DNA of 55,018 nt from Candidatus Eiseniibacteriota bacterium (GTDB taxonomy: Bacteria > Eisenbacteria > RBG-16-71-46 > DASYSL01), in contig JANPEF010000067.1 of NCBI GenBank assembly GCA_031431875.1, positions 1-55,018 on the forward strand, given 5' to 3'. The notes under the pieces are model-generated. The model was not told the DNA's origin. It ran no database searches and saw only the letters and a list, made by a program, of their open reading frames with translations. Both the position numbers and the translations under genes were made by a program. Positions 28,526 to 52,017 of the stretch are shown here, piece by piece. Position 1 is the first letter of the stretch; each line of letters begins with the position of its first letter.

Positions 28526-29044
28526 GTGAAGGACTTGTCGACTTTTGCACCGGCCAGCGCCGACCTCGCGGAGGACCTCGTACGGGCACAGTCGGGCGAC
28601 GCCTGGCATGGACCCGCCGTCGGCGAGCTGGTCTACGGGGTCACGGCCGTCGAGGCGGCGGCCCACCCGGTGCCCGGCGCCCACTCGATCTGGGAGGTCG
28701 TGCTCCATGTCACCGGCTGGCGGAACGAGGTTGCACGGCGGCTCGCCACGGGCACGCTCGCCGAGCCCGCGGCGGGCGACTGGCCGGCCGTCCCGGCCGT
28801 GAATGAGGCGAACTGGGCCGCCGCCGTCGCCGGCCTGGCGGCGTCGACCGACGCGGTGATCGGGGCGCTGGCCACGTTTCCGGTCGAGCGCCTCGGTGCG
28901 CAGGCGGGGGACACGCGCGATCCGACGCTGGGATCCGGCGTGACGTGGGCGGCAATGCTGCGCGGGCTCGCCCAGCACGATGCGTATCACGGCGGTCAGA
29001 TCGGGGTCTTGAAGAAGGCGCTCGCCGTGCGGCAGGCATCGTGA
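28526..29044 (+). CDS. DinB/YfiT family protein
   Basis: AWHGP, HSIWEVVLH, QHDAYHGGQI metal-binding His pattern. Confidence 0.85.
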   Translation: MKDLSTFAPASADLAEDLVRAQSGDAWHGPAVGELVYGVTAVEAAAHPVPGAHSIWEVVLHVTGWRNEVARRLATGTLAEPAAGDWPAVPAVNEANWAAAVAGLAASTDAVIGALATFPVERLGAQAGDTRDPTLGSGVTWAAMLRGLAQHDAYHGGQIGVLKKALAVRQAS

Positions 29045-29637
29045 GCCCGTCCGGCGACCGCGAGCGCGTGCGCTGCGGCTGGGCGACCGGGTTCGACCTC
29101 TACCTCGAGTACCACGACACGGAGTGGGGCGTGCCGGTGCACGACGACCGGCGCTTCTTCGAGATGCTGATCCTCGAGGGCGCGCAGGCCGGGCTGTCGT
29201 GGGCGACGATTCTCAAGAAGCGCGCCGCGTACCGCAAGGCGTTCGATCGCTTCGACGTGCGGAAGGTCGCGCGCTACGACGCGGCGAAGGTTCGCGCGTT
29301 GCTCGCCGACGCGGGAATCGTGCGCAACCGCCTGAAGATCGCGGCGGCAGTGAGGAACGCTCGGGCGTTCCTGGCGGTGCAGGACGAGTTCGGGAGCTTC
29401 GATGCGTACGCCTGGCGCTTCGTCGACGGCGCGCCGATCGTGGGCCGCCCGCGTGCGCTGGCCGACATCCGGCCCACCACCGCCGAATCCGACGCGCTGA
29501 GCAATGACCTGAAGCAGCGCGGCATGACCTTCGTCGGCTCGACCATCATGTACGCCTTCATGCAGGCGACGGGGCTGGTCGACGATCACGTCGTCGGCTG
29601 CTTCCGGGCGACGAGGGCGCGGAGCGGGCGAAGCTAG
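29041..29637 (+). CDS. tag: DNA-3-methyladenine glycosylase I
   Basis: RCGW, YHDTEWG, LEGAQAGLSW, IVRNRLKI, FVGSTI..AFMQATG..DDH..C. Confidence 0.95.
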   Translation: MSPSGDRERVRCGWATGFDLYLEYHDTEWGVPVHDDRRFFEMLILEGAQAGLSWATILKKRAAYRKAFDRFDVRKVARYDAAKVRALLADAGIVRNRLKIAAAVRNARAFLAVQDEFGSFDAYAWRFVDGAPIVGRPRALADIRPTTAESDALSNDLKQRGMTFVGSTIMYAFMQATGLVDDHVVGCFRATRARSGRS

Positions 29638-32171: not shown

Positions 32172-32184
32172 GCCCGCTAGAATA
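32154..32184. promoter_or_regulatory. Putative bidirectional sigma70 promoter (tRNA-Asn on +, leaderless PBP on -)
   Basis: + strand TTGACC(32154)-N18-TAGAAT(32178); - strand TATTCT on the same bases, 7 nt before the PBP ATG at 32171. Confidence 0.5.
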
Positions 32185-32278
32185 CCGGTCTGCCGCGGCG
32201 AAGTCTTGGAAGTCTCCGTCGCCTATGGATTTGGCCGGATTCGGGCCGTTTCGCAACAGGCCCCCGGCACCCCGCAGT

Positions 32279-32353
32279 TCCTGAGTAGCTCAATGGCAGA
32301 GCAGCCGGCTGTTAACCGGCAGGTTGTAGGTTCGAGTCCTACCTCAGGAGCCA
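32279..32353 (+). tRNA. tRNA-Asn (GTT)
   Basis: Acceptor TCCTGAG/CTCAGGA, D-arm AGCTCAATGGCAGAGC, anticodon stem GCCGG-CTGTTAA-CCGGC, T-loop GGTTCGAGTCC, encoded CCA. Confidence 0.97.
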
Positions 32354-32359
32354 ATATCC

Positions 32360-32400
32360 ATGACCCCCGCGACCCTCTGAGCCGCGGGGGTTCGTCGTTT
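32360..32400 (+). terminator. Terminator-like hairpin after tRNA-Asn (repeat copy 1)
   Basis: CCCCCGCG-loop-CGCGGGGG followed by TTCGTCGTTT. Confidence 0.65.
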
Positions 32401-32480
32401 CGGCGGTCGCCGGCTCCCCGACAACTGCTCGCCGCCCCGTATGCTACCGTCGGGCGCCGCTCATTCCCGGAGGTTCAGCC

Positions 32481-32558
32481 CTGACGACGCCGCTCGAACG
32501 CCTGCGCGTTGTCCTCGCCGACCGCTACCGCATCGAGCGGGAAATGGGCAGCGGTGGG
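32481..32558 (+). pseudogene. Ser/Thr kinase N-terminal relic (copy 1)
   Basis: GGAGGT RBS, then LTTPLERLRVVLADRYRIEREMGSGG; homologous to 40426-40569. Confidence 0.6.
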
Positions 32559-32797
32559 GACGGTCTCCACTCAACCGCGCCGGGAGAAGGTTGACCCGAG
32601 TTTGGCGGGTGGGAGCAACCATGCCCGAACTGAGGCCTGTGGTCACCCCAGTCGCATCGGAGTACTCTTGTGCGCGCTAGGCTCAGCCCCCCGAACTCGC
32701 TCCAGAGATGACCAAGCCATGACTCCCTGATCCAATCGATGGCTCCGTGCCGGCCGACAAGTGGACCCCTGCCTGGGTGCGCCGAAGCGAGGTAAGA

Positions 32798-34822
32798 ATG
32801 CCGGGACTCTCCGCTCACCTGTCGCGCGTCCCGTGGTGCATTTCCGCGATGCTCGTGCTCTCTGCCGTCTCCAGTTGGGCGCAGGGCTTTCCGGCAATCC
32901 CACCCGCCTGCTCCGAGTCTCCCGAGTTCCGGGCACGGCTCGATGCTGCGGCCACGAACTCGACGCTCGAACCGTGGCAGCGGGAGTTCATGCGGGGGTT
33001 GGTGGGGGCAGGCGCGGCGCGCGGGACGATGGACGCGGCACCCAGCGGAAACGGGGCGGTGGATCCGAGTGGCGAGTGGGATCAGCTTCCCCCGCCGAGC
33101 GCGCGCGTCGCCCACAGTGCGATTTACGACCCGGTGCGCGACCGCATGATCGTCTTCGGAGGGTCGGACGATTCCGGCTACCGCAACGATGTCTGGGCGC
33201 TCAACCTCTCGGGCACTCCGGCGTGGAGCGCGCTCAGCCCAACGGGCACCCTGCCGACCGCGCGCCAGGGCCACACCGCGATCTACGACCCGGTGCGCGA
33301 CCGCATGGTCGTCTTCGGGGGGTCCGACGGAAGGCTCGGCACTTTCAGCCTCAACGAAGTCTGGGCGCTCAGCCTCTCGGGCACGCCGGGTTGGAGCGCG
33401 CTCAGCCCATCGGGCACCCTGCCGAACGGGCGCTACTCCCACACCGCGATCTACGACCCGATGCGCGACCGCATGGTCGTCTTCGGAGGGGCCGACGATT
33501 CCGGCTCGATCAACAACGTCTGCTGGGCGCTCAGCCTCTCGGGCACGCCGGCGTGGAGCGCGCTCAGCCCCACGGGCACCCTGCCGAGCGCGCATTACGG
33601 CCACACTGCCCTCTATGACCCGACGCGCGACCGCATGGTCGTCTTCGGAGGGTACGACGGTTCCGGCTTCCGCAACGACGTCTGGGCGCTCGGCCTCTCG
33701 GGCACGCCGGCGTGGAGCGCGCTCAGCCCCACGGGCACCCTGCCAGCCGGGCGCGACGGCCACACCGCGATCTACGACCCGGTGCGCGACCGCGTGGTCG
33801 TCTTCGGAGGGTTCGACGGAGGGCCCGAGCCCGTCATCTTCGGCCTCAACGACGTCTGGGCGCTCAGCCTCTCGGGCACTCCGGGGTGGGGCGCGCTCAG
33901 CCCCACGGCCACCATGCCGACCAGGCGCGATGGCCACACCGCGATCTACGACCCGGTGCGCGACTGCATGATCGTCTTCGGAGGGTCCGAATATTCTGCC
34001 CGCCGCAATGACGTCTGGGCGCTCAGCCTCTCTGGCACGCCGGCGTGGAGCGCGCTCAGCCCCACGGGCACCCTGCCGAGCGGGCGCTACTCCCACACCG
34101 CGATCTACGACCCGGTGCGCGACCGCATGGTCGTCTTCGCAGGGGGCAACTTTTCCGGCCTCGACGACGTCTGGGCGCTCAGCCTCTCCGGCGCGCCGGA
34201 GTGGATCGCGCTCAGCCCCACGGGTCCCCCGCCAAGCGCGCGCTCGGGCCACACCGCGATCTACGACCCGGTGCGTGACCGCATGGTCGCCTTTGGAGGG
34301 TATGACGGCTCCGACTACCGCAACGACGTCTGGGCGCTCAGTCTCTCGGGTACGCCGGCGTGGAGCGCGCTCGGCCCCACGGGCACCCTGCCGAGCGCGC
34401 GCGTCGCCCACAGTGCGATCTATGACCTGGTGAGCGACCGCATGGTCGGATTCGGGGGATACGGCGGCACCATCTTCAACGACGTCTGGCGGCTGACTTT
34501 CTCATCGCTCGTCGCCGTCGATCCGGAAGTCCCGCCAGTCCCGTCCAGGTTCGAGTTCGCGCCACCGCGTCCCAATCCAGCCCACCACAGCGTGAGCTTT
34601 GATCTGTTCGTTCCGCACGCATCTCGCGTGTCGCTCACGGTGTACGACAGCGCCGGGCGGATCGTTCACCGAGTCGCTGATGCTCTGTTCGCCCCGGGAC
34701 GTCACACGCTCGTGTGGAATCGCAGGAACGAAAACGATCGTGCGGTTCCGAATGGGATCTATTTCGTCCGCTTGCATGCGCCCGGCGTGCTCCTCACCAG
34801 GAAAGGCATATTGATTCAGTGA
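32798..34822 (+). CDS. Secreted Kelch-repeat beta-propeller protein with C-terminal FlgD-Ig-like domain
   Basis: Signal peptide; nine HTAIYDPVRDRMVVFGG...DVWAL repeats; tail PRPNP...VYDSAGR.V...WN...NGIYFVRL. Confidence 0.85.
   Translation: MPGLSAHLSRVPWCISAMLVLSAVSSWAQGFPAIPPACSESPEFRARLDAAATNSTLEPWQREFMRGLVGAGAARGTMDAAPSGNGAVDPSGEWDQLPPPSARVAHSAIYDPVRDRMIVFGGSDDSGYRNDVWALNLSGTPAWSALSPTGTLPTARQGHTAIYDPVRDRMVVFGGSDGRLGTFSLNEVWALSLSGTPGWSALSPSGTLPNGRYSHTAIYDPMRDRMVVFGGADDSGSINNVCWALSLSGTPAWSALSPTGTLPSAHYGHTALYDPTRDRMVVFGGYDGSGFRNDVWALGLSGTPAWSALSPTGTLPAGRDGHTAIYDPVRDRVVVFGGFDGGPEPVIFGLNDVWALSLSGTPGWGALSPTATMPTRRDGHTAIYDPVRDCMIVFGGSEYSARRNDVWALSLSGTPAWSALSPTGTLPSGRYSHTAIYDPVRDRMVVFAGGNFSGLDDVWALSLSGAPEWIALSPTGPPPSARSGHTAIYDPVRDRMVAFGGYDGSDYRNDVWALSLSGTPAWSALGPTGTLPSARVAHSAIYDLVSDRMVGFGGYGGTIFNDVWRLTFSSLVAVDPEVPPVPSRFEFAPPRPNPAHHSVSFDLFVPHASRVSLTVYDSAGRIVHRVADALFAPGRHTLVWNRRNENDRAVPNGIYFVRLHAPGVLLTRKGILIQ
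33090..34495 (+). repeat. Nine coding tandem repeats (about 160-180 nt each) with high nucleotide identity
   Basis: Recurrent CACACCGCGATCTACGACCCGGTGCGCGACCGCATGGTCGTCTTCGG and GTCTGGGCGCTCAGCCTCTCGGGCAC blocks. Confidence 0.9.
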
Positions 34823-34945
34823 GACCGACCGGTGCGGGACCGGTTCAGCGATGACAACACTCGACGTTGGGGCAGGTCATCCGGGCAGCATTCGAGAAGG
34901 CGCGGGCAACTCAGGCAGCGTAAGCCAACCGTCTACGGAATGAGA

Positions 34946-34977
34946 CGGCGATCGCTCCCATGAGGGGGCGATCGCCG
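34946..34977. terminator. Hairpin between convergent genes
   Basis: CGGCGATCGCTCCC-ATGA-GGGGGCGATCGCCG. Confidence 0.55.
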
Positions 34978-35009
34978 GGAACAACACTCTTGACGTCAGT
35001 CATGCCATA

Positions 35010-35837
35010 TCAGCGATATGTCGCCTTGACGGATCCCCAGCTCGTGCTCTGTGCCGGAACTGCGCACTCGTCCGTTGAAACGCTCGAATTGTCGAACGCG
35101 ATGTACGGGAGAGCCGAGTAGCCCGAGCCTGAAGCCGGGCTGCAGAACCAGGCGTAGCGATGTCCGCCCACTGCGGAGCTCGGGATGGGGGTCGTTCCGC
35201 TGCCCGGATTGTAAAGTGTGGGGACATCGAAGTAGGCGACCACCACCGCGCTGGAATTCTTGATTTCAACATCCACGTCCAGGAATCCAGCTTCGTTCGT
35301 GAAGATGTACTTCATCGTGTACCAGCCCGTGCCCGTCGTGATCGCCTGCGGAGTGCGACCCGGGTCGGAGGGCCAGCCCGGACAGTTCTGACTTGCGCTG
35401 GCAATCCATTGCCCGGGAATGCCTGGACGGGTCCCAAGCGCAACCACGAAATCGCTCAGGTGCGTGCAATCGGTGCTGTTGTTGATGGCCACGGTGTAAT
35501 TGAAGCGCCGATCGGCACCGTCGGCCAGGGAGAAGTCCAGGTAGACGTCAACGGAAATCGTGAAGCCCGTTGGCGGGAAGCAGCAGACGTAGCCGCCAAG
35601 GTTACCCGCCGCCGACGTAGCATTCGTGAGGTTGGACTCGGCGTGGAATGATCCCGAAGCCGAGGGAACACCATTGGTCCCCGATGCCACGCGTACTGCT
35701 TGGCGGTTGGTGAGGGTCCATCCGGAGTTATCAGTTTCGAAACCCTGACTGAACCCTGGCGCTGCGACACTCGTTCCTGCGACCGCGAGGCTCGCGACGG
35801 CCACCAGGATCGGAACAATAAATCGAGAACATCTCAT
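35010..35837 (-). CDS. Secreted hypothetical protein ending in VPAQSTSWGSVKATYR
   Basis: Signal peptide MRCSRFIVPILVAVASLAVAGTSVA; beta-rich body; GGAG RBS. Confidence 0.75.
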   Translation of the reverse strand: MRCSRFIVPILVAVASLAVAGTSVAAPGFSQGFETDNSGWTLTNRQAVRVASGTNGVPSASGSFHAESNLTNATSAAGNLGGYVCCFPPTGFTISVDVYLDFSLADGADRRFNYTVAINNSTDCTHLSDFVVALGTRPGIPGQWIASASQNCPGWPSDPGRTPQAITTGTGWYTMKYIFTNEAGFLDVDVEIKNSSAVVVAYFDVPTLYNPGSGTTPIPSSAVGGHRYAWFCSPASGSGYSALPYIAFDNSSVSTDECAVPAQSTSWGSVKATYR

Positions 35838-35942
35838 GGGAGGAATCTCCAGAGGACAAGCGGGGCCGGCCCCACGGTCGACGACAGGGCCAACTGCCCC
35901 AGGAGAGTGACGGGTCCGGGGGGGGTGGTTGGGACGCAATGA

Positions 35943-35970
35943 AGTATGAGCCGGGTGCAGACGCTGTCAA
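35943..35970 (-). promoter_or_regulatory. Putative sigma70 promoter for the 35837 gene
   Basis: Minus strand TTGACA-N16-CATACT. Confidence 0.45.
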
Positions 35971-36171
35971 GCACAGAGGTTCGGCTCGTCGAACCTCAGA
36001 TGAGAGGCTCCTGTATCACACCCGGTTCCTTGGACACCAGGCAGCGCAAGCATCCCGTCCACGAAATCGGGGCATGCTCAGTTGCGATGTCCCATTGCGT
36101 GCAGAAATCGGTCTCGCGTCGATCCCCTCGGGGATCGGGAGGCCGGCTCAAGTCCCCCGGGACGTCTACTT

Positions 36172-36354
36172 CTAGAGGTTGGGTCCGGAGCCGAACCTGC
36201 GGAATACCATGAGCAGGATCCACACGGCCAACGCGCCGACGACGAAGATGTTGAGGAGGTTCTTCGCCCCGGCCTGCATCGGGACGTATCGGTTCACGAC
36301 CCACAGCGCAACGCCTGCGACGATGATGACCAGCGCGATCTCGACAATAGGCAT
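36172..36354 (-). CDS. Small two-TM membrane protein (Thivi_2564-like)
   Basis: IIVAGVALWVVNRYVPM...KNLLNIFVV...VWIL pattern; AGGAAG RBS. Confidence 0.7.
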   Translation of the reverse strand: MPIVEIALVIIVAGVALWVVNRYVPMQAGAKNLLNIFVVGALAVWILLMVFRRFGSGPNL

Positions 36355-36393
36355 GACGGCTTCCTTTCTTCAGGGTTGTCCTGGCGTGAGCCC

Positions 36394-37866
36394 TCAGTCG
36401 TGGCTCAGGCTCTCGTCGGTTCGGAACGAGCGGGCCATGCGGTCGAAGGTCGGCTCGAGCGACCGGTAATCCGTTTCCGGCGCGACGAAGAGCATGTAGA
36501 CGATGTGCTCGTCGGGCAACTGGCGGGCAAGCACCGTCACCCGTTCAGCCGAGTTGGTCGCGGTTGCGCGGCCGGTGAGCTGGACGGTGAAGGTCGGATG
36601 ACCCGACAGCACCTGCGATCGCTCGGAGCCGCTCACGCGCCGCAGGCTGGGATTGGCCTCCAGGATGTGACGCACGAGGTCACTCGTCGCTTCATCGAGC
36701 GGAGTGTCGCCGAACATGGATCCGTCCGGATCCACGTACGCGGCACCGATCGCGCCATCGAATGGCACGTAGTGATTCACGATGACACCATGCGTGATGC
36801 TCGAGCGGTTGCTCGAGGTCGCCCGAGATTCACCACGCGGAACAAACGTCACGCCGTAGCTGCCGTTGGCCGCATAGGCATCCCAGTTGTCCGGTTGTTC
36901 GATCTGGTAGAGGGCGTCCGCCTGCCGGAAGACACGGAACTGCGATGAGGGGCGTTCGATCGAGGGCCCACCCGCGCCGGCGCTGACCGACTGGCTGGAC
37001 GTCGCGGCCTGTCCCTGCGCCAGCTGTGCCGTGGTCCGTGCCGCGGGGAGCCTGCGGAGTCGGGTCTGGGTCGTCCGCAGGTTTCCCGTGACTGCCAGCA
37101 GGTGCACCGGGGCCAGCAAGGCCGCTTCCCGGCGAACGCGCGCCTCGCGGTCCGTCGGCGCGGGATGATCGCTCAGGAACTGCGCGAGCTTCCCCGGATC
37201 GCCGCCCGCCTGTTGGCCCAGGTACGTGAAGAAGGTCGCCATCTCGACGGGGTCATAGCCGGCTTTCGCCATGATCTGCGAGCCCACGACATCCGCCTGG
37301 GTCTCGGCCGACCGCGAGAACTTGAGGAACACGGCGTTCAACCCGAAACCGCCAACCGCTCCGATGATCTCTCCCGTCGAGGTCTGGGACTTGCTGCCCA
37401 GCAGTCCGCCGAGGATGCCAAGGCCGGCCTGGGCCAGGTACGCCTTCGAGGCCTGGTTGGTCGGGTGCCGCAACGCCACGTGGGCGATCTCGTGGGCCAT
37501 CACGCCGGCGAGCTCGCCTTCGCTCCGCACCTTGTCCAGCAATCCCCGGTTGACGTAGATGAAACCGCCGGGGAGCGCGAAGGCATTGATGTCGGAGACG
37601 TTCACGATCTTGAAGCGGTAGTCGTAGTCCGCCCCTGGGGCGTGGGCCGCCAGCCTCGCGCCCAAGCTGCTCACGTAGCGCGATGCGGCCGCGTCGGAGA
37701 GAATGGGGAGTTGTTTCTCGGCCTGCAGGGATGACTGTTTCCCGATCTCCACGTCCTGGGCGACCGAGAAGATGTTGAATCCGGGTTTGACGACGGTTTG
37801 CCCGCTCGCGGTGCCGGCCAGCAGTGTCATGGCCACAACGAGAGTGATGCCATAATGTCGCTTCAC
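36394..37866 (-). CDS. M48 family metallopeptidase, secreted
   Basis: Signal peptide; INAFALPGG, ELAGVMAHEIAHV (HExxH), FSRSAETQAD, FLSDHP. Confidence 0.9.
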   Translation of the reverse strand: MKRHYGITLVVAMTLLAGTASGQTVVKPGFNIFSVAQDVEIGKQSSLQAEKQLPILSDAAASRYVSSLGARLAAHAPGADYDYRFKIVNVSDINAFALPGGFIYVNRGLLDKVRSEGELAGVMAHEIAHVALRHPTNQASKAYLAQAGLGILGGLLGSKSQTSTGEIIGAVGGFGLNAVFLKFSRSAETQADVVGSQIMAKAGYDPVEMATFFTYLGQQAGGDPGKLAQFLSDHPAPTDREARVRREAALLAPVHLLAVTGNLRTTQTRLRRLPAARTTAQLAQGQAATSSQSVSAGAGGPSIERPSSQFRVFRQADALYQIEQPDNWDAYAANGSYGVTFVPRGESRATSSNRSSITHGVIVNHYVPFDGAIGAAYVDPDGSMFGDTPLDEATSDLVRHILEANPSLRRVSGSERSQVLSGHPTFTVQLTGRATATNSAERVTVLARQLPDEHIVYMLFVAPETDYRSLEPTFDRMARSFRTDESLSHD

Positions 37867-38082
37867 AATTCACCTCCGGAGCAGACTGGATCCTCGCCGC
37901 GCGTGGGGGCGGTCGGGTCCGTCACCCGGAGCCAAGAGCCATTATCATGCCAAGGGACACACCGCTCCTGGACGCCGACTCGGGCTCGATCTGCTGTCCT
38001 GAGGCAGGGTTTGGGGGGCCAGATGGGACGGTTCGGCCCTGATGGAGTGGAAGCTTTTTCAAACCCGGGCAGGACTTGCAGT

Positions 38083-38100
38083 CTGGGCAACCCGGGGAGC
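38083..38100 (+). repeat. att-like core repeat, partial copy
   Basis: CTGGGCAACCCGGGGAGC, identical to 38371-38388. Confidence 0.75.
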
Positions 38101-38325
38101 TACTTCAATGCCGTGCCCGCACACGGCTTCACTTCACCGCGTCGAGTCTCGCCCCGTGGATGTGCCATTGAAGTTGTGCGGGAGTGGCGCCGGGGACGTC
38201 GTTGCTGCCCTCGGCCTGGATCAGGATCTGTGTGCTGGGACGCCGCTCGCGCAGGGTGCTCAGTTGCGCGGGCGACGTCTCGAACGGGCCTCCTCCCGTT
38301 GGGAGTCATGTCGGAGGGGGTGGAG

Positions 38326-38438
38326 GATGCGGAATGTCGCGATCTCCGGCCTCCCGCGCCGGTTCGTAGACTGGGCAACCCGGGGAGCCAACATCCATGA
38401 CCCCCGCGACTCTCTGAGCCGCGGGGGTTCGTCGTTTC
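38326..38438 (+). repeat. att-like junction copy 2: arm + tRNA 3' core GGAGCCA + terminator hairpin
   Basis: GATGCGGAAT...CCGGTTCGTAGACTGGGCAACCCGG-GGAGCCA-ACATCCATGACCCCCGCGACTCTCTGAGCCGCGGGGGTTCGTCGTTTCG; the part after the core is nearly identical to 32347-32402. Confidence 0.85.
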
Positions 38439-38526
38439 GATGGTCCCGTGGGGCATGTTTCCGAGGCAACGTCGCGGCTGCTGGCGGGTCCTCGTGGCTC
38501 ACGGCCCCGAAGCCACCCGGTGGGAG

Positions 38527-39172
38527 ATGCCCGAAACACGCAGCCTTCAGCGCCGTCCTCATGGCGGTACTGGTGTGGGCGAGCTTCGTTGGGATTACAG
38601 GAGTCAAGGATCGGTTCGTTCCGGATGAGCCGTTTCGGACCGCTTTCAGCTTCGTGGATGAGGCGATCCTGTGGATCAACACGAACTCGTCCCATACGGT
38701 CACGAGCGGCATCCCGGGCGACGCGGACGCGGGATCGCTCTTCGACATGTCGCTCGGCGTCGGGGTCCAGCGATCGTTCACCTATACGAACACGGGTCGC
38801 TTCCCGTTCTTCTGCATCCCACACTCCCCGATGCGGGGCGTCGTCAACGTCAAGAGCCTGGTGGGCGTGATCCCGGTGTCGGGAGAAGAGGGTGCGATCG
38901 GCTTCGTCTCGTGGCCCTCGCCGAATCCGTCGACGAACGGCGTTACGTTCCGCTTCGCGTTGCGCGAGGCAGGGCGGGCGCGGCTCGAGGTCCTTGACGT
39001 GCGCGGGCGGGTCGTGGCGCGTCCGGTGGAGGGGGACTATGGCGTGGGGACCTATGCCGCGCGCTGGGACCGCGCGAGCGCAAGATGGGCGCGCGCGCCG
39101 GCCGGCGTCTATTTCCTGCGCCTGACCGTGCCGGGGGCGCAGCAGAGTGAGCGTGTGGTCATCGCCGGCTGA
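38527..39172 (+). CDS. Cupredoxin (plastocyanin/azurin-like) plus FlgD-Ig-like tail; 5' end probably frameshifted (in-frame ATG at 38561)
   Basis: HTVTSG...FFCIPHSPM type-1 Cu ligands; PSPNP...LDVRGRVV...WD...GVYFLRL tail. Confidence 0.65.
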
Positions 39173-39236
39173 TTGAGATCAGCATCAGGGGTGAGTGTCC
39201 CCGTTCCCTCTCGGCGGGGGCCGCGCCAGAATGGCT

Positions 39237-39968
39237 TCAGGCCGCGCGGGTTCGTTGCTCGGGATCCGCATCATCGCGCCGCGGTCCGTACCAGACATCC
39301 AGACCTTCGCGGCTTCTCACTGCGCCCATTCCCCGTGTGGCGACGAGGGCAGCGAAACCGAGGATGTCGCCCGATGAATGCGAGCGCAACTTGCGCCCGG
39401 ACGTGAGAACACCCTCGCGCAGGATGACAAAGCGCCCCTGTCGCTGCAGCGCGCGGCTGAGGACGACTTCCTCACCGGCATAGATCGATTCATCGAACCC
39501 GCCCGCGTCTTCGAATGCGTCGCGTGTGCAGAAGAGGAAACAACCGGCCGCCAGCCGTGCCGACCGCTGGAGGGCATGCAGAACGAGTTCGGCGACGCGA
39601 GCCCAGGCGGGCAGTCGACCGTCGAAGCGAACGTGGCACCCACCTCCGACGGCCCCGGCGCGCAGGGCATTCAGGGCGGCGCCAACGACTGCAGCATCGA
39701 CCAACGTGTCGGCATCGACGAAGACGATGAACCGTCCGCGTGCCTCGCGCGCGCCGGAATTGCGCGTGGCCGAGATCTGGCGGTTCACGACGCGGACGAG
39801 TCGTGCCCCATGCTCCGCGGCGATCGCCGCCGTCCGATCCGTCGAGCAGTCATCGACAACGATGATCTCGAACGGCTCGCCGCACGCTCCGGCGGCGGCG
39901 TGGAGCGACGCGAGCGTGCGAGCGAGAAGGCGCTCCTCGTTGTGAGCCGGGATGACGAAGGAGATCAT
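39237..39968 (-). CDS. Glycosyltransferase family 2
   Basis: MISFVIPAHNEE, IIVVDDCSTD, RNSGA, FVDADT, GGFDE. Confidence 0.9.
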   Translation of the reverse strand: MISFVIPAHNEERLLARTLASLHAAAGACGEPFEIIVVDDCSTDRTAAIAAEHGARLVRVVNRQISATRNSGAREARGRFIVFVDADTLVDAAVVGAALNALRAGAVGGGCHVRFDGRLPAWARVAELVLHALQRSARLAAGCFLFCTRDAFEDAGGFDESIYAGEEVVLSRALQRQGRFVILREGVLTSGRKLRSHSSGDILGFAALVATRGMGAVRSREGLDVWYGPRRDDADPEQRTRAA

Positions 39969-40224
39969 TCCATGGTTTTCGGCGCGCGGACCGGAGGCCT
40001 CCACTCGATTCGGCACCGCGGATCCGCGGATTGCCCCAGGCCGGGCGACGCGCGCTCACCAACGCGATGGTTCCCTTCTCGACTCGTAACGTATCGCCAC
40101 TGCACCCGAGCAGAGTTCCAGCCGGCCCACGCGCTTCGAGAGCTCCGCCAACGAACCGCGTCGGGCTTGCTGTCTGTCAACTCGGCGCGCGGAGAACTCG
40201 GGAGGTCACGGGTCCGCCCGCAAA

Positions 40225-40337
40225 GATGCGGAATTCGGCACGTTCCCCGGGAAAACTCCGGTTCGTACTCTGGGCAGCCCGGGGAGCCAAGATTCGTGAC
40301 CCCCCGCGACTCTCCAAGCCGCGGGGGTCATCGTTTT
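40225..40337 (+). repeat. att-like junction copy 3: arm + tRNA 3' core GGAGCCA + terminator hairpin
   Basis: GATGCGGAAT...CCGGTTCGTACTCTGGGCAGCCCGG-GGAGCCA-AGATTCGTGACCCCCCGCGACTCTCCAAGCCGCGGGGGTCATCGTTTT; same 45-nt arm spacing as copy 2. Confidence 0.85.
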
Positions 40338-40425
40338 GACGGTCGCAGTTGGCCCGGCTGCCGGGGAACGGTGGTTCGACGCTCCGTGTGGTACCGTCGG
40401 GGTCGCTCTCCCCAAAGGTTCAGCC

Positions 40426-40569
40426 CTGTCCATGGTCCTCGAACGCCTGCGCGATGTCCCCGGCGACCGGTACCGCATCGAGCGCGAGCTGGGGCGCTGC
40501 GGGATGGTCACCGTCTACCTGGCGGAGGATCTGAGACACCGCCGCCTGATCGCGCATAAGGTCATCCAC
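40426..40569 (+). pseudogene. Ser/Thr kinase N-terminal relic (copy 2)
   Basis: LERLRDVPGDRYRIERELGRCGMVTVYLAEDLRHRRLIAHKVIH, degenerate subdomains I-II, truncated. Confidence 0.75.
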
Positions 40570-40613
40570 GCGGAGAGCGCACCTCGCTGGCGCCCCGAAG
40601 ACGGAGACTGCCC

Positions 40614-43600
40614 ATGATCGGCCGCACCCTGGCCCACTATTCGATCACCGCCAAGATCGGCGAGGGCGGGATGGGGGAGGTGTACCGGGCGACGGACACG
40701 CGCCTCAAGCGCGACGTCGCCCTCAAGGTGCTTCCCTCCGCCGTGGCCGCGGACCGCGATCTCCTGGTCCGCTTCCAGCGCGAAGCCGAGTCTGTCGCCG
40801 CCTTGAACCACGCCAACATCGTGACGATCTTCTCCGTGGAAGAGGCGGAGGGCATGCATCTGCTCACCATGGAGCTGGTGGACGGCCAGAGCCTGGATCG
40901 CTCGCTGCCACCCGAGGGATTGTCGCTGGAAGATCTCTTCCGGATCGGGATCCCGCTCGCCGATGCGCTCCAGGCCGCGCACGAGGCGGGGATCGTGCAC
41001 CGGGACTTGAAGCCCGCCAACGTGATGGTCACGAAGCAGGGGCGGGTGAAGGTGTTGGACTTCGGTCTGGCCAAGAGCGCGTTGGCGCCGCCTGCCGACA
41101 CCGATGCGACGCTGGGCATGGCCGCCGCTCCGCTCACCGGAGCAGGCACGGTGTTGGGGACGGTGCCCTACATGGCGCCGGAGCAGTTGCGGGGCGGGCC
41201 GGTGGACGCGCGCACGGACCTGTTCGCGCTGGGCGTCCTGCTCTACGAGCTGTCCACGGGGACGCGCCCGTTCACCGGCGTGAGCTTTCCTGAGATCATG
41301 GCCTCGATCCTGAAGGAGGAGCCACTCCCGGTGACTGAGCGGCGGTCCGATCTTCCCCAGGAGTTCGGGCGGATCGTGCGGCGGTGCTTGGCCAAGGAGC
41401 CGGATCGCCGCTATCGGACAGCGCGCGACGTGCGGAACGATCTCGAAGACCTGCAGCAGATGTTGGAATGGGGGCGGCGGTCGGGCAGCGCGGGGCACGC
41501 TTCGGCGAAACCTGCGACGTCCGAGGCGCAGACCATCATCGTTCCCGGGACTTCCGGCGCGGCAGCGCGGGGAGCCGGTGCCGGTTCGGGCGCCGCGCTG
41601 ACCGCCTATCGCGAGAGCCGCATCCACGAGTGGAGCCAGCCGCGCTACAAGCTGGACCGGGAGTTCGTGGCGCTGACGCTGCTGGTGGACCAGGGCGAGG
41701 AGACGGCGTCGGGCCGGTGGAGCGCCCAGCCCAAGACGTATCAGGACCTCGGGGAGCTGCTGAACCAGGTGGAGGACCCGGCGGTCGTGGTGTTGGGGTC
41801 GCCGGGCTGCGGGAAGAGCACGCTGCTCCGGCGTCTGGAGCTGGAGCTGGCGCAGAAGGGGCTCACCGATCCCGAGCAGCCGGTGACGTTCTTCATCCAG
41901 CTCAACCACTACAAGGGACGGGGACAGGAGCCACCTCCCGATCCCGAGACCTGGCTCGCCGAGCGCTGGTCCGCGCGCCACCCGGACCTGCCGCCTTTCT
42001 CCGATCTCTTGAAGACAGGTCGGATGATCCTGCTTCTGGACGCCTTGAACGAGATGCCGACGCCAAACACGGCGGCGCTTCATGACGCCGTGCTCGGCTG
42101 GAAGGGCTTCCTCGAACTGGTGGTGAGCGATCATCCGGGGACACGCGTGGTCTTCACCTGCCGGGCCCTCGATTACAGCGCCTCGCTCTCCTCCCCGGCC
42201 CTCCGGGTCCCGCAGGTCGTGGTGGAGCCCTTGACCGACGAGCAGGTGGCGCAGTTCCTCGGGAAGCAGAGCCCGGACCAGGGCGCAAGGATCTGGGGCC
42301 AGATCAAGGGAACCCCGCAGCTCGAGCTGTTGCGCTCGCCATACTTCCTGTCGCTCCTCACCGACCAGGTGGAGGCGACGGGGGAGATTCCGCAGGGCCG
42401 CGCAGGTCTGTTCACCGGGTTCGTGCGCCAGGCGCTGCGCCGGGAGGTGGAACGCGGCAACCCACTGTTTTTCCCGAACGGTCTGCTGACCGAACGGGAC
42501 ATCCGCCGGATCACGCAATGGTCGTGGAAGACGGGATGGGACCTGCCCGAGCGCGGGGTGCTGGTGCCGAAGCTTGCGGCGCTGGCGTTCGCGATGCAGT
42601 CGGAGGGGGGCGGTGGGGGCCAGGTGCGGGTGGAGTATGACGAGGCACTGGAACTTCTGAGTCATGAGCAGGACAAGGCGATCCTGAAGGCAGGTCTGGC
42701 GCTGTCGGTGCTGGACGAGGATCCCGGCAAGGACGAGGTGCTCTACGTGCACCAGCTGGTGCAGGAGTACTTCGCGGGCCGGCAGCTGGCGAAAGCGCCG
42801 GATCCGGCGCGGGTCGAGGTGCCCTGGCAAAACCGACAGATCACGCCGCCGCTGAGCACGATCATCAAGACGCTGCCGCCTGGTGAACGCCTGCCACCGC
42901 TGGCGACGACCGGCTGGGAGGAGACCGCGATCCTGGGGGCCGCGATGACGGAGTCCCCGGACGCTTACGTCAGGGATCTCATGGGGACCAACCCGGTGGT
43001 GGCGGGCCGGGCGGCGGGTCAGGTCGAGGTTCGCGAGCGACTGACCGCAGCCACGCTCGACGATCTCCGTCACGCGCTGGTGCGCCGGAGCATCAACCGC
43101 GAGGCCGACTTGAGATCACGGATCGAGGCGGGGCTGGCGCTTGGAGTGCTGGGGGACCCGAGGTTCGAGGCGCGTGAGGGGCCGCACGGCAGATACCTGC
43201 TCCCGCCGATCGTGGTGCTCTCCGCCGGGAGCTACCCCATGGGCGAAGACGAGGTGTACGAGTACCTGGGCCATCGGGTCGAGAACCACATGCCCCGGCA
43301 CGAGGTGGATCTCCAGGGGTTCGGGATCGGTCGGTATCCGGTGACGAATGCCGAGTGGCGATGCTTCATGGACGCCGGCGGATACGAGGAGGAGCGGTGG
43401 TGGGACACGGCGGGCGCCAAGCGGTGGTGGAACGGGGACGGGACGGCGGAAGGGACGCATGCGAACGTGCGGTACTGGCACGGGCAGTTCCGGCAGGACC
43501 GCGAGAAGCTGGAGGAGGCCTGGAGGAAGGGCGAGCTGCGGCAGGACGGCTACGAGCGCTGGAAGAGTCGGCTTGAGATGAGTGGGGATGAGCTCGACGC

Positions 43601-44201
43601 CCATCTGCGGGAACTCTATCCGGGGGGGAAACTGCGGTCGCCGGCCTTCTGGCACGATGGGCGGTTCAACAACCCGTCGCAGCCGGCGGTGGGGGTGAGC
43701 TGGTATGAGGCGCGGGCGTACTGCAACTGGTTGTCGGCGCAGACGGGGGAGGGCTACCGGCTGCCGACGGAGGCGCAGTGGGAGGCGGCGGCGCGGGGGA
43801 AGGAAGGGCGGCAGTACGCGTGGGGCAACCCGTTCGGGGCGCTGTGGGGGAACACGGCCGCGACGAAGGTGGACGGGACGACCCCGGTGGGGGTGTTCGT
43901 GGAGGGGGAGACGCCCGAGGGGGTGAGCGATCTGACGGGGAACGTGGACGAATGGACAGGGAGCCTGTTCGGAGCGGGGCTCGATTTCGAAACGGCGCCG
44001 TTCGCCTATCCGTACGACCCGGCCGATGGACGGGAAGACCAGGAGGCAGGACCGGAGATCCGCCGTGTGTTGCGGGGCGGCGCGTGGAACCTCGATGAAG
44101 TCCATGCGCGCGCGTCCTACCGCTACACGTTTCTCCCGGGCAATCGGAACTACGGCAACGGGTGTCGGGTGGTGGCGCGTTCGTCCCCCATGTCAACCTG
44201 A
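40614..44201 (+). CDS. Ser/Thr kinase - NACHT NTPase - FGE-sulfatase (CLec-fold) multidomain protein
   Basis: GEGGMG, HRDLKPAN, DFG, APE; Walker A GSPGCGKST, Walker B ILLLDALNE, HQLVQEYFA; YPVTN, P..GVSWYEA, RLPTEAQWE, DLTGNVDEW, RGGAW. Confidence 0.92.
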   Translation: MIGRTLAHYSITAKIGEGGMGEVYRATDTRLKRDVALKVLPSAVAADRDLLVRFQREAESVAALNHANIVTIFSVEEAEGMHLLTMELVDGQSLDRSLPPEGLSLEDLFRIGIPLADALQAAHEAGIVHRDLKPANVMVTKQGRVKVLDFGLAKSALAPPADTDATLGMAAAPLTGAGTVLGTVPYMAPEQLRGGPVDARTDLFALGVLLYELSTGTRPFTGVSFPEIMASILKEEPLPVTERRSDLPQEFGRIVRRCLAKEPDRRYRTARDVRNDLEDLQQMLEWGRRSGSAGHASAKPATSEAQTIIVPGTSGAAARGAGAGSGAALTAYRESRIHEWSQPRYKLDREFVALTLLVDQGEETASGRWSAQPKTYQDLGELLNQVEDPAVVVLGSPGCGKSTLLRRLELELAQKGLTDPEQPVTFFIQLNHYKGRGQEPPPDPETWLAERWSARHPDLPPFSDLLKTGRMILLLDALNEMPTPNTAALHDAVLGWKGFLELVVSDHPGTRVVFTCRALDYSASLSSPALRVPQVVVEPLTDEQVAQFLGKQSPDQGARIWGQIKGTPQLELLRSPYFLSLLTDQVEATGEIPQGRAGLFTGFVRQALRREVERGNPLFFPNGLLTERDIRRITQWSWKTGWDLPERGVLVPKLAALAFAMQSEGGGGGQVRVEYDEALELLSHEQDKAILKAGLALSVLDEDPGKDEVLYVHQLVQEYFAGRQLAKAPDPARVEVPWQNRQITPPLSTIIKTLPPGERLPPLATTGWEETAILGAAMTESPDAYVRDLMGTNPVVAGRAAGQVEVRERLTAATLDDLRHALVRRSINREADLRSRIEAGLALGVLGDPRFEAREGPHGRYLLPPIVVLSAGSYPMGEDEVYEYLGHRVENHMPRHEVDLQGFGIGRYPVTNAEWRCFMDAGGYEEERWWDTAGAKRWWNGDGTAEGTHANVRYWHGQFRQDREKLEEAWRKGELRQDGYERWKSRLEMSGDELDAHLRELYPGGKLRSPAFWHDGRFNNPSQPAVGVSWYEARAYCNWLSAQTGEGYRLPTEAQWEAAARGKEGRQYAWGNPFGALWGNTAATKVDGTTPVGVFVEGETPEGVSDLTGNVDEWTGSLFGAGLDFETAPFAYPYDPADGREDQEAGPEIRRVLRGGAWNLDEVHARASYRYTFLPGNRNYGNGCRVVARSSPMST

Positions 44202-44301
44202 GCCGCTGAACGCGACCCCCGGGTCAGCGGCGAAGGAGGCGGCGCGTACGCGCTGCCGACGGGTTGAGCCGCCCGATCTCCCACGTCAACGTCTTCCCTC
44301 C

Positions 44302-44706: not shown

Positions 44707-44729
44707 AGCAATTGTCGGCCACTTCTCAA

Positions 44730-50809: not shown

Positions 50810-50934
50810 GTAAATGGACGGCGTTCAGCCAAGGGTGTAGTTCCCCAAAGCGGGCTTGACCCGATCTCGTAGGCGGTTCGCAAACGCCGCTGGAGTCGCC
50901 CGAGCTCGCCGCTCGATCGGGCGCACATCCGTCC

Positions 50935-51090
50935 CCCTTCACGACAAGTTCGAAGAGGTCTTCGCCTCGGGCACCAACCCCCAACGAAAACACCTCCTCC
51001 ACCACGTGGTGAAGGAGGTGCGTGTTCACGGCCGTCTGTCGGTCGAGGTGCCTACCTCGTGCCGCAGCCGGGCCCGCGGGACCCGGTCAC
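50935..51090 (+). pseudogene. Possible C-terminal remnant of a large serine recombinase
   Basis: HDKFEEVFASGTNPQRKHLLHHVVKEVRVHGRLSVEV(fs)YLVP resembles the K-x-LL-x2-LV-x2-V-x-V...IEV-x-Y tail of LSRs; recognised by eye only. Confidence 0.45.
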
Positions 51091-51092
51091 TA

Positions 51093-52014
51093 GGCTGTGT
51101 CTGAAAACGCTGGAACGTAGTAGGCTCCCCGCGAAGTGCCCCCGCAGGGCGACTTTGTGCAGGAGTCGTGTCGATGCGCCGCTACGAGCTGTCGGACGAA
51201 GAGTGGGCCGTGATCGAGCCGCTGTTTCCCGATGTGGCGTGGACGGGTCGTCCTCGACGGTCGCCGCGCGAGATGGCCAACGCGCTGTTCTGGGTGTTGC
51301 GCAGCGGGTCCCCGTGGAGGGACCTGCCGGAGCGCTTCGGTCCCTGGCAGACGTGCTATCACCACTTCAACTCCTGGCGCCGCGCCGGCGTGTTCGATCG
51401 CATCCTCGAGGCCCTGCAGATCCGGCCCGATGCGGAGGGGCACATCGACTGGGATCTCTGGTGCGTGGACGGCACCTCGGTACGGGCTTCGAAGTCGGCC
51501 GCAGGGGACGGAAAGAGGGGGCCCGCTCGAGCCCCAAGACCACGCACTGGGCCGCTCGCGCGGCGGATTCGGGAGCAAGCTCCACCTGGTCGCTGACGGT
51601 CACGGCCTTCCCCTCGCGGTCCACGTCACGGCCGGGCAAGTCCACGAGTCGACGCAGTTCGAAGCGGTCTTGAACCGGGTTCGCATCCGGCAGCCACGCG
51701 GACGGCCGCGCACCCGGCCCGCTGCGGTGGCCGGCGACAAAGGGTACAGCTATCCGCGCATCCGCCTCTGGTTGCGCCGCCATACGATTCGAGCGGTGAT
51801 TCCGCGGCGCTCAAATCAGGAGCCCGACGATGGTCGTGTCCGCTTCGACAAGCAGGCCTATCGCATGCGCTGCACCGTCGAACAGTGCATCGGCTGGCTC
51901 AAGGAGTGCCGTCGCGTGGCCACTCGCTTCGAGAAGTACGCCGTGAACTTCCTCGCCATGATTCAGGCGGCGATCATTCAACGGTACCTCCGTGTCCTGT
52001 TTTCAGACACAGCC
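51093..52014 (+). mobile_element. IS5-family (IS427-like) insertion sequence, 922 bp
   Basis: Perfect 16-bp TIRs GGCTGTGTCTGAAAAC / GTTTTCAGACACAGCC; TA duplication (51091-92, 52015-16) in a CTAG context. Confidence 0.93.
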
Positions 52015-52017
52015 TAG
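51174..52017 (+). CDS. IS5-family transposase in two overlapping frames (frame change near 51510-51521)
   Basis: orfA ELSDEEW...WRDLPERFGPW...VDGT; orfB LGRSRGGFGSKLH...GDKGY...VEQCIGWLKECRRVATRFEK. Confidence 0.88.

What the first reader, a model, noticed from the sequence alone, without database searches (positions are those of the whole stretch)
32279..40340. tRNA-Asn-anchored tandem array of integrase-less cassettes delimited by repeated att-like junctions
Seen: the tRNA 3' core GGAGCCA plus the hairpin ATGACCCCCGCGA..CT..AGCCGCGGGGGT..TCGTTT occurs three times (32347, 38384, 40283). Copies 2 and 3 replace the tRNA body with a shared arm, GATGCGGAAT-N-CCGGTTCGTA..CTGGGCA(A/G)CCCGG, at identical 45-nt spacing; its GGTTCG mimics the T-arm. 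The units between junctions (about 6.0 kb and 1.9 kb, then an open-ended third) carry unrelated cargo, mostly secreted or envelope proteins, and no recombinase. Known: islands integrate at tRNA 3' ends and can stack in tandem. Inference: these are non-autonomous cassettes with common ends, added sequentially at the tRNA by a recombinase acting in trans, i.e. an integron-like gene-capture array using a tRNA as the attI equivalent. The alternative is decayed tandem islands.
Basis: partly seen in the sequence, partly recalled or inferred. Interest (0 to 1): 0.85.

Follow-up and report, generated by a model that had tools for sequence, protein, structure and literature searches.

The report
Serine-recombinase cassette array at tRNA-Asn
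Three repeated junctions after a tRNA-Asn gene look like docking sites of a large serine recombinase, and they bound small gene units that carry no recombinase of their own; this enzyme class is not known for using tRNA genes or building such stacks.

Summary
GGAGCCA plus the GC hairpin occurs at 32347, 38384 and 40283 (3 matches, 0 expected). Copies 2 and 3 share a 58-nt arm.

The arm does not copy the tRNA. It is the left half-site, plus end sequence, of the attP of a large serine recombinase (LSR) element family. Arm·core·GTGGCTGTGTACGAACCGG is a 54-bp dyad centred in GG|AGCCA. It abuts the 3' end of an LSR gene on contig C39 and several LSR remnants. GTTCG sits 5 bp further out in arms than in the tRNA, as published for LSR attP versus attB.

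So 32347 is attB-type and the other two are attR-type hybrids. The hairpin is the tRNA's own terminator, conserved across the order.

The units between cores hold no recombinase. Similar core-bounded units occur on other contigs, in a relative and in metagenome contigs. One kinase unit is present or absent exactly core to core.

Best reading: recombinase-less cassettes or relics stacked at tRNA-Asn by an LSR acting in trans. The result resembles an integron, but this is not an integron. No circles or empty sites were seen.

The parts
32279..32353 (+). tRNA-Asn (GTT). Its T-arm GGTTCGAGTCC is the B-type left half-site.
   Evidence: GTTCG outer base at half-site position 19
32347..32353 (+). Core GGAGCCA of junction 1 (tRNA·hairpin = attB-type).
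32360..32402 (+). Hairpin H1, the native tRNA-Asn terminator (right, B' side).
   Evidence: the same kind of hairpin follows tRNA-Asn in order-level relatives
32466..32558 (+). Remnant of the 5' end of Ser/Thr kinase gene K (..LERLRVVLADRYRIEREMGSGG, then decays).
   Evidence: D7
32747..34822 (+). Unit 1 cargo: Kelch-repeat protein with FlgD_ig tail.
35010..35837 (-). Unit 1 cargo: secreted protein of no known family (signal-peptide-like start MRCSRFIVPILVAVASLAVA).
36394..37866 (-). Unit 1 cargo: M48 peptidase.
38072..38102 (+). Decayed extra junction: inner 21 nt of an arm plus core-like GGAGCTA, followed by a decayed P'-like start (CTTCAATG..).
   Evidence: D16
38326..38383 (+). Arm of junction 2 (P-type half-site CCGGTTCGTAG plus about 45 nt of element end).
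38384..38390 (+). Core of junction 2 (arm·hairpin = attR-type).
38397..38439 (+). Hairpin H2 (96% alike to H1 over 56 nt, core included).
38561..39172 (+). Unit 2 cargo: small cupredoxin-like secreted protein with a weak Por_Secre_tail match.
39237..40016 (-). Unit 2 cargo: family 2 glycosyltransferase (93% alike to G001:C348, where it has other neighbours).
40225..40282 (+). Arm of junction 3.
40283..40289 (+). Core of junction 3 (arm·hairpin = attR-type).
40297..40342 (+). Hairpin H3 (diverged, 1-nt indel).
40411..40534 (+). Second remnant of kinase K's 5' end (MVLERLRDVPGDRYRIERELGRCGMVTVYLAEDL.., ORF stops at 40534).
40614..44201 (+). Gene after the array: kinase-NACHT-FGE-sulfatase fusion protein.
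50931..51131 (+). Decayed 3' end of an LSR gene (40 aa, 90% alike to C39 LSR residues 391-430) with a decayed core and P' beyond it. It lies in inverse orientation to the array and outside the finding.

Best explanation
The junctions are attachment sites of a family of mobile elements moved by a large serine recombinase (LSR) that uses the 3' end of tRNA-Asn. GGAGCCA is the shared core. The crossover is probably the GA at core bases 2-3, the centre of the attP dyad. The five bases to the right of it (AGCCA) come from the element, so the tRNA end is restored. The arm is the element's P half-site (CCGGTTCGTAC, half-site positions 17-27) plus about 45 nt of element end. The hairpin is the tRNA's own terminator, the B' side of the chromosomal site. 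So 32347 is attB-type (tRNA·hairpin), and 38384 and 40283 are attR-type hybrids (arm·hairpin). The stretches between cores are recombinase-less units of the form [hairpin-cargo-arm]. They were joined exactly at the core and stacked behind the tRNA. The joining agent was either the LSR supplied in trans or homologous recombination through the 56-130 nt of shared ends. The array holds no attP and no attL, so it is now inert, except that junction 1 is an open landing site.

Shown: the repeats, the site anatomy, the LSR link, core-to-core unit boundaries, and the differing content in relatives.

Inferred: the crossover position, action in trans, and the order of events.
For: (1) LSR link. C39 encodes a protein with Resolvase, Recombinase and Zn_ribbon_recom domains. 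Its 3' end reads through GTACGAACCGG..GGAGCCA joined to a tRNA 3' fragment. The same LSR tail follows arm·core on C79, C108 and C5, and follows an unrelated left flank with core GGAGCTA at C106:71331.
(2) Arm·core·P' is a dyad: 19 of 30 positions pair, 11 of them consecutive, centred between core bases 2 and 3. The other three combinations score 12-14 of 30.
(3) GTTCG's outer base is at half-site position 24 in all 12 arms with an intact outer motif and in both L3 lefts (the two decayed G001 arms lack it). It is at 19 in all 9 tRNA or tRNA-fragment lefts. CGAAC is at 24 in 11 of the 13 right sides that keep the motif. A 5-bp inward shift of the outer motif in attB is what Rutherford et al. 2013 report (PMC3783163, passages).
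(4) All four combinations exist: tRNA·H; tRNA·P' (C39, C108:3934, C29:6889); arm·P'; arm·H.
(5) In relatives, tRNA-Asn is followed directly by P' plus an LSR 3' end in G009 and G007 (G007 is unpublished), and by P' plus a terminator in G003, G004 and G005. It is followed by the hairpin in G002 and in order-level relatives.
(6) A canonical decayed element: C106:71331 (x·P' with LSR remnants) to C106:81629 (arm·B' with CGAAC at position 19), 10.3 kb apart, followed by host PFK-GAPDH-PGK.
(7) Units bounded by cores. C79 and C39 share fumC (88% over 589 nt) and differ by [H-kinase-arm-core]. The kinase units of C79 and C29 are alike from 2 nt before the left core to the last base of the right core, with different flanks. 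G001:C55 has arm'·H-kinase-arm'·P'.
(8) Other arrays exist: C29 has 5 junctions and C108 has 2. Two metagenome contigs carry two arm·P' junctions 5.2 and 1.65 kb apart, the latter around one FlgD_ig gene.
(9) The arm is lineage-restricted: 3 of 41 genomes, controls 0.
Against: Canonical serine integrases recombine only attP with attB, and attL with attR when a directionality factor is present. No canonical reaction series turns an attB site into attB...attR...attR, so a non-canonical step is needed: a relaxed LSR, homologous recombination or deletion.

No core-to-core joint (circle or empty site) is among the joints listed for four runs. Those data are contigs, which drop rare forms, and 27 joints were not shown.

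The only long LSR gene is cut by a contig end before its catalytic serine (Resolvase profile positions 42-145 of 145). All other copies are fragments of 30-82 aa, so current activity is doubtful.

The right half of the tRNA site shows no clear mirror motif: 12 of 30 positions, and GACCCC lies at varying distance from the core in different copies.

None of 12 arms in metagenome contigs is joined to the hairpin, so arm·H units are so far peculiar to this genome and G001.

C39, C79, C29, C108 and C5 are short contigs of a MAG. The 88% fumC pair suggests that some belong to a second, related population.
Confidence: 0.6

Rival explanations
1. Pure decay. Each unit is what is left of a once-complete LSR element that integrated at tRNA-Asn. 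Accretion, internal deletions and homologous recombination or gene conversion among the shared ends produced the present order. No unit ever moved without its own recombinase.
For: LSR fragments of 30-82 aa are scattered over six contigs, with one in the window. A 215-nt mini-element (P'-deletion-arm) lies in G001:C55. Kinase remnants follow junctions 1 and 3. IS transposases sit beside junctions. Tandem accretion followed by decay is the published route for arrays of integrase-less elements (PMC5704250, passages).
Against: Random deletion does not explain why units start exactly at a core with the hairpin and end exactly at a core. It also does not explain the core-to-core presence or absence of the kinase unit between C79 and C39.
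Confidence: 0.25
2. Segmental duplication. The tRNA-Asn 3' flank (core, hairpin, kinase 5' end) was copied by unequal crossing-over. The arm is simply the neighbouring sequence at the duplication borders.
For: In G000 the hairpin is followed by the kinase or its remnant at 4 of 5 X·H junctions, and also in G001:C55. Copies are 76-96% alike.
Against: The left partner changes exactly at the core, among tRNA, tRNA fragment, arm and L3. The arm also occurs with the LSR end and without any hairpin.
Confidence: 0.07
3. The arm-core is a dispersed regulatory element (promoter or 5'UTR ending in a GGGGAG ribosome-binding site) or a REP-like repeat. Its match to the tRNA end is chance.
For: Several arms are followed within 4-9 nt by ATG or GTG. 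One precedes the PFK-GAPDH-PGK operon.
Against: It was not found in 38 of 40 relatives searched. In junctions 2 and 3 it is followed by a terminator hairpin. It forms a dyad with the LSR-side sequence. The downstream ATGs mostly do not open the real genes.
Confidence: 0.03
4. Assembly or binning artefact: repeats collapsed or contigs mis-joined at the shared 56-nt repeat.
For: The genome is a MAG of 166 contigs. tRNA-Asn loci of several relatives end at contig borders.
Against: Contigs of two public runs bridge 34390-41100 and 34390-40502, and 32286-33123. They may come from the same data as the MAG.
Confidence: 0.02

Closest known systems
Serine integrases / large serine recombinases with attP and attB (phiC31, Bxb1, A118/LI family)
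   Same: Resolvase-Recombinase-zinc-ribbon architecture. The site next to the gene is short and dyad-symmetric (54 bp). The outer motif is shifted 5 bp between the element-type and host-type half-sites (PMC3783163 passages). Hybrid sites flank integrated DNA (C106).
   Different: The target is the 3' end of a tRNA gene, restored by 5 element-borne bases. Passages of Islander 2014 (PMC4383910) say serine integrases are not known to target tRNA genes. Many attP-type junctions lie inside chromosomal arrays. Units without a recombinase are stacked.
Tandem accretion and cis-mobilizable elements (CIMEs) of ICESt1/ICESt3-type and other ICE/IME sites
   Same: Integrase-less units keep att sites, sit in tandem at one target, and can be moved by a related element's recombinase (PMC5704250, passages).
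   Different: Those use tyrosine recombinases, whose sites share long identical repeats. Here the recombinase is a serine one, the units are 0.3-6 kb and often hold one gene, and their left end can be the host-type half (hairpin).
Integrons (IntI, attI, attC cassettes)
   Same: The outcome is alike: an array of small, mostly recombinase-less gene units separated by a conserved junction, with the recombinase encoded elsewhere.
   Different: There is no IntI-type tyrosine recombinase in the window and no attI. The junctions are double-strand LSR half-sites rather than folded attC. Unit genes face both ways.
tRNA-gene genomic islands of tyrosine integrases (Islander signature)
   Same: The target is the 3' end of a tRNA gene, the gene is restored after insertion, and tandem arrays occur (PMC4383910, passages).
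   Different: Only 7 nt of the tRNA are repeated, not 20-70. No integrase lies inside the units, and the recombinase class differs.
Tn4451/Tn5397-type transposons of TnpX/TndX serine recombinases
   Same: These large serine recombinases both insert and excise without a directionality factor (PMC5704250 passage). From recall, not from any call, they cut at a GA dinucleotide. Such relaxed behaviour would explain all the junction combinations seen here.
   Different: Relatedness to this LSR was not tested. Those elements carry their own recombinase and do not build arrays at tRNA genes.

Membership tests
Large serine recombinase (protein on C39) | Resolvase catalytic domain followed by Recombinase and zinc-ribbon domains | tested here: met
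   PF00239 1.1e-27, PF07508 5.4e-16, PF13408 6.2e-14
Large serine recombinase (protein on C39) | Catalytic serine near the N-terminus present | tested here: inconclusive
   The contig ends at Resolvase profile position 42; the N-terminus was not found elsewhere
LSR attP site (arm·core·P') | Short dyad-symmetric site beside the recombinase gene | tested here: met
   19 of 30 positions pair, centre between core bases 2 and 3; the LSR 3' end abuts it
LSR attB versus attP half-sites | Outer recognition motif 5 bp nearer the centre in attB than in attP | tested here: met
   Left halves: position 19 in 9 of 9 tRNA-type, position 24 in all 14 arm or L3 lefts that keep the motif. The right half of the tRNA site shows no clear motif.
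LSR recombination | Crossover at a central 2-bp overlap | not testable with these tools
   Sequence swaps occur somewhere within GGAGCCA; the exact position is inferred from the dyad centre
Integron | IntI-type tyrosine recombinase gene with adjacent attI at the head of the array | tested here: not met
   PF00589 hits only on C121 (2) and C74, none on the window's contig
Integron | attC sites (imperfect inverted repeats recombined as folded single strands) ending each cassette | not tested
   The junction holds a hairpin, but it is the tRNA terminator conserved in relatives without arms. No attC model was run.
tRNA genomic island (Islander signature) | tRNA gene plus a displaced tRNA fragment with an integrase gene between them | tested here: not met
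   Only the 7-nt core is repeated at 38384 and 40283; no integrase lies between
CIME-like integrase-less element | Flanked by att sites of a known recombinase family and lacking integration and transfer genes | tested here: met
   Units 32354-38383 and 38391-40282 lie between cores and hold no recombinase
CIME-like integrase-less element | Mobilised by the recombinase of a related element | not testable with these tools
   No circle or empty-site joint was listed in contigs of 4 runs

The most novel reading that the evidence does not exclude
A cassette system run by a large serine recombinase. Small units, often a single gene for a secreted FlgD_ig/T9SS-tailed protein or a Ser/Thr kinase, each end in LSR half-sites. 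One recombinase acting in trans would excise, reinsert and shuffle them among arrays anchored at tRNA-Asn and its pseudo-sites. This would be a functional analogue of the integron built on a different enzyme class and on double-strand sites.
Probability: 0.3. Interest if true: 0.8.

Novelty: new variant of a known kind. Interest (0 to 1): 0.62.

Why it matters
Serine integrases are described as inserting into protein-coding genes or intergenic sites. The passages read from Islander 2014 say they are not known to target tRNA genes. Here the site anatomy indicates one that does, and that restores the tRNA with only five element-borne bases.

The family also leaves arrays of small, recombinase-less units bounded exactly by its sites, in several places of one genome, in a congener and in environmental contigs. 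If the units move in trans, this is a second, independent route to integron-like gene shuffling, here of secreted proteins and kinases in an uncultured sediment lineage. The one named genome hit is a MAG titled Candidatus Eisenbacteria.

The attP/attB pair is short and well defined, so it is directly testable and could serve as an integration tool.

Tried and rejected
1. My first reading was that the arm is a promoter or 5'UTR ending in a ribosome-binding site, because ATG or GTG follows several copies. I dropped it because the arm was not found in 38 of 40 relatives, forms a dyad with the LSR-side sequence, and most downstream ATGs do not open the real genes.

2. Sigma-54 or ECF promoter readings of the arm, checked by eye, did not fit the spacing. 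No tool test was run.

3. Rfam at E<=1 over 30000-46000 gave only the tRNA.

4. Laying contigs of four public runs on 29000-46000 listed no joint between cores and no circle. The listed joints have 20-32 nt sides and fall elsewhere, and 27 were not shown. Contigs cannot show rare forms. Runs X5 and X6 hold the same sequence at low depth and add no variant.

5. The genome-contig scan for the arm gave 1 hit.

6. Earlier scan notes gave nothing relevant: one search returned one unrelated note and one search returned none.

7. The 57%-identical LSRs of G003 and G005 showed no arm or P' at their 3' ends in the DNA held, so they were not used.

8. Three literature searches for a serine integrase targeting tRNA genes (a further search found no paper) turned up no such case in the listings and passages read. 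This is not proof that none is published.

9. I could not derive the present order attB...attR...attR from canonical LSR reactions alone. Several paths were considered: insertion of an attR circle at attL followed by loss of the element between two arms, homologous insertion through the hairpin, and a relaxed TnpX-like recombinase. The data do not decide among them.
Full report
OBSERVATION

The window holds one tRNA, tRNA-Asn(GTT), at 32279-32353 (+). Its last seven bases, GGAGCCA, followed by a GC-rich hairpin, recur at 38384 and 40283. A 22-nt pattern covering core and hairpin start gives 3 matches against 0.00 expected in 100 shuffles. Copies 1 and 2 are 96% alike over 56 nt. Copy 3 is more diverged and has a 1-nt indel. 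Each hairpin folds at -22.6 to -25.8 kcal/mol.

Copies 2 and 3 carry a shared 58-nt arm in place of the tRNA body, in identical register. Two things had been missed:
- The DNA after junction 1 (32466-32558) is about 80% alike to that after junction 3 (40411-40503). Both are short remnants of the 5' end of a Ser/Thr kinase gene, here called K.
- A fourth, decayed junction lies at 38096.

GENES

The gene order is:
- PBP1A (-)
- tRNA-Asn
- Unit 1: Kelch/FlgD_ig protein (+), a secreted protein of no known family (-), M48 peptidase (-)
- Unit 2: a small cupredoxin-like secreted protein (+), a GT2 glycosyltransferase (-)
- A kinase-NACHT-FGE fusion gene (+)

No recombinase lies in 32.3-40.3 kb, by Pfam on the ORFs, whole-genome family searches or tblastn with the LSR.

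THE ARM IS DISPERSED, BUT NOT RANDOMLY

The window is contig C67 of a 166-contig MAG with a single tRNA-Asn. The arm occurs 9 times in this genome, 2 and 1 times in two congeners, and in none of 38 other relatives searched. The reversed-pattern control gave 0. Such a narrow spread argues against a conserved regulatory element and for mobile DNA.

A catalogue of all sites built around the core shows two kinds of left partner:
- tRNA or a tRNA 3' fragment
- the arm, or a second P-like sequence called L3

It shows two kinds of right partner:
- the hairpin H, usually followed by kinase K
- GTGGCTGTGTACGAACCGG, here called P'

All four combinations exist.

THE RECOMBINASE

P' is the end of a gene. 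On C39 an open frame of at least 467 aa with Resolvase, Recombinase and zinc-ribbon domains, a large serine recombinase (LSR), reads through P' and the core. Fragments of the same C-terminus follow arm·core on C79, C108 and C5. One also follows an unrelated left flank at C106:71331. Further fragments lie on C29 and at 50931-51050 of the window.

In family-level relatives, tRNA-Asn is followed directly by P' and an LSR 3' end in G009 and in G007. G007 is unpublished, and this one example rests on it. In congeners G003, G004 and G005, tRNA-Asn is followed by P' and a terminator.

In G002 and in order-level relatives whose match runs past the tRNA (at least G016, G026, G035, G030, G022, G028, G018), tRNA-Asn is followed by a hairpin of the same kind. 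The hairpin is therefore the tRNA's native terminator, not element DNA.

SITE ANATOMY

Arm·core·P' is a 54-bp dyad: 19 of 30 positions pair, including 11 in a row (CCGGTTCGTAC / GTACGAACCGG), centred between core bases 2 and 3. The other three combinations score 12-14 of 30.

GTTCG's outer base lies at half-site position 24 in all 12 arms that keep the motif and in both L3 lefts. The two decayed G001 arms lack it. It lies at position 19 in all 9 tRNA-type left halves. The mirror CGAAC lies at position 24 in 11 of the 13 right sides that keep the motif.

Passages of Rutherford et al. 2013 (PMC3783163) state that the outer zinc-ribbon-domain motif of serine-integrase sites is shifted 5 bp toward the centre in attB relative to attP. 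On that basis:
- arm·P' is attP
- tRNA·H is attB
- tRNA·P' is attL
- arm·H is attR

Junction 1 is therefore attB-type, and junctions 2 and 3 are attR-type.

A canonical decayed insertion supports the assignment. C106:71331 (x·P' with LSR remnants) and C106:81629 (arm·B', with CGAAC at position 19) lie 10.3 kb apart. Host PFK-GAPDH-PGK follows.

UNITS BOUNDED BY CORES

C79 and C39 share fumC (88% over 589 nt). They differ by exactly [H-kinase K-arm-core]. C79 reads tRNA fragment·H-K-arm·P'-LSR, and C39 reads tRNA fragment·P'-LSR.

The kinase units of C79 and C29 are alike from 2 nt before the left core to the last base of the right core (89.6%, 87.5% and 76.4% in three blocks). Both outer flanks are unrelated. 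G001:C55 reads P'-about 200 nt-arm'·H-K-arm'·P'-LSR remnant.

C29 carries five junctions with one gene between each pair: kinase-PD40, kinase-TPR, a DUF5122 protein and an FG-GAP/FlgD_ig protein.

Among 12 arms on 10 metagenome contigs, by my reading of the sequences printed:
- 10 are joined to P'-type sequence.
- 1 is joined to a B'-type site followed by host aro genes.
- 1 starts as P' and then diverges near a contig end.
- None is joined to the hairpin.

Two contigs hold two arm·P' junctions in direct order, 5.2 kb and 1.65 kb apart. The shorter pair encloses a single FlgD_ig gene. Six of the 12 arms lie about 60-430 nt after a gene with a FlgD_ig or Por_Secre_tail end.

RELATIVES AT THE tRNA

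Synteny upstream (PBP1A-tRNA-Asn) holds in G002 (92%), G004 and G005. It breaks at the tRNA's 3' end.

The cargo has no close counterpart in 12 relatives, apart from the GT2 gene (93% in G001:C348, with other neighbours). Several relatives' tRNA-Asn contigs end within a few hundred bases of the gene. This fits a repeat-rich, variable spot.

WHAT REMAINS OPEN

Canonical serine integrases recombine attP with attB, and attL with attR when a directionality factor is present (abstracts listed). No canonical series yields attB...attR...attR.

Three routes fit the data, and I cannot tell them apart:
- The LSR excises circles of the form [H-cargo-arm] from attB...attP pairs, as in C79 versus C39. These reinsert by homologous recombination through the hairpin or arm.
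- The same circles insert at an attL with a directionality factor, and the resident element is then lost between two arms.
- The recombinase has relaxed partner choice, like the one encoded by Tn4451, which inserts and excises without a factor (PMC5704250 passage).

Contigs of four public runs confirm collinearity across the junctions but list no core-to-core joint. Contigs cannot exclude rare forms. The only long LSR copy lacks its N-terminus because the contig ends there. Some short contigs may belong to a second, related population.

COMPARISON AND VERDICT

The parts are known kinds: LSR att sites, and tandem accretion of integrase-less elements (CIMEs, PMC5704250 passages).

Three features are unusual:
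- A serine recombinase uses a tRNA gene. Passages of Islander 2014 say this is not known (PMC4383910). Three further searches found no case, and a fourth found no paper.
- Only five bases are needed to restore the tRNA end.
- Small, often single-gene units are bounded exactly by the sites and stacked in several arrays.

This is not an integron: there is no IntI-type recombinase on the contig. The outcome does resemble one.

I rate it a new variant of a known kind, interest 0.62. My confidence is 0.6 in the LSR-site and cassette-or-relic reading, and about 0.3 that the units are actively shuffled in trans.

Noticed in passing
window 50931-51131 and 51232-52017: A decayed LSR 3' end (40 aa, 90% alike to the C39 LSR) with a decayed core and P', in inverse orientation to the array. 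An IS5-like DDE transposase gene (PF01609) sits beside it, and an HMA-domain protein and a P-type ATPase lie just upstream.
   Followed up: partly
window 34858-34941 (weaker copy 36038-36067): An approximately 85-nt motif (..GGGCAACTCAGGCAGCGTAAGCCAACCGTCTACGGAAT..) that is single in this genome but found on many contigs of relatives (G005 on at least 7, plus G002, G003, G004, G013). It lies directly after tRNA-Asn·P' in G003, G004 and G005. It has no Rfam match and its function is unknown.
   Followed up: partly
G000 contigs C39 and C79: Two copies of the fumC 3' end only 88% alike. The MAG may hold short contigs of a second, related population, or two paralogous loci.
   Followed up: partly
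G000:C106:81629: An arm joined to an inverted T-arm-like sequence (GTAGGACTCGAACC) with CGAAC at the attB-type distance, just before the PFK-GAPDH-PGK operon. This looks like a non-tRNA secondary site for the same recombinase.
   Followed up: partly
window 40614-44201: A single 1195-aa ORF combining a protein kinase, a NACHT NTPase and an FGE-sulfatase domain.
   Followed up: no
window 33025-34503: Nine to ten tandem 156-174-nt repeats inside the Kelch gene (D1-D6). These are the Kelch blades and are ordinary.
   Followed up: no
window 32360-32380 and 38397-38417: A six-codon ORF (MTPATL) starts 6 nt after the core and overlaps the 5' side of the hairpin in junctions 1 and 2. It is probably meaningless and is not kept in junction 3.
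   Followed up: no
L064, L066, L067, L072 (metagenome contigs): IS transposase genes (Mutator, rve, ISL3 families) lie beside arm junctions. The junction regions seem to collect insertion sequences.
   Followed up: no
Relatives' tRNA-Asn loci (G002:C18, G007:C182, G008:C98, G009:C223, G014:C138, G025:C123, G026:C48): The contig ends within a few hundred bases downstream of tRNA-Asn. This suggests repeats or strain variation there in many genomes of the group.
   Followed up: no
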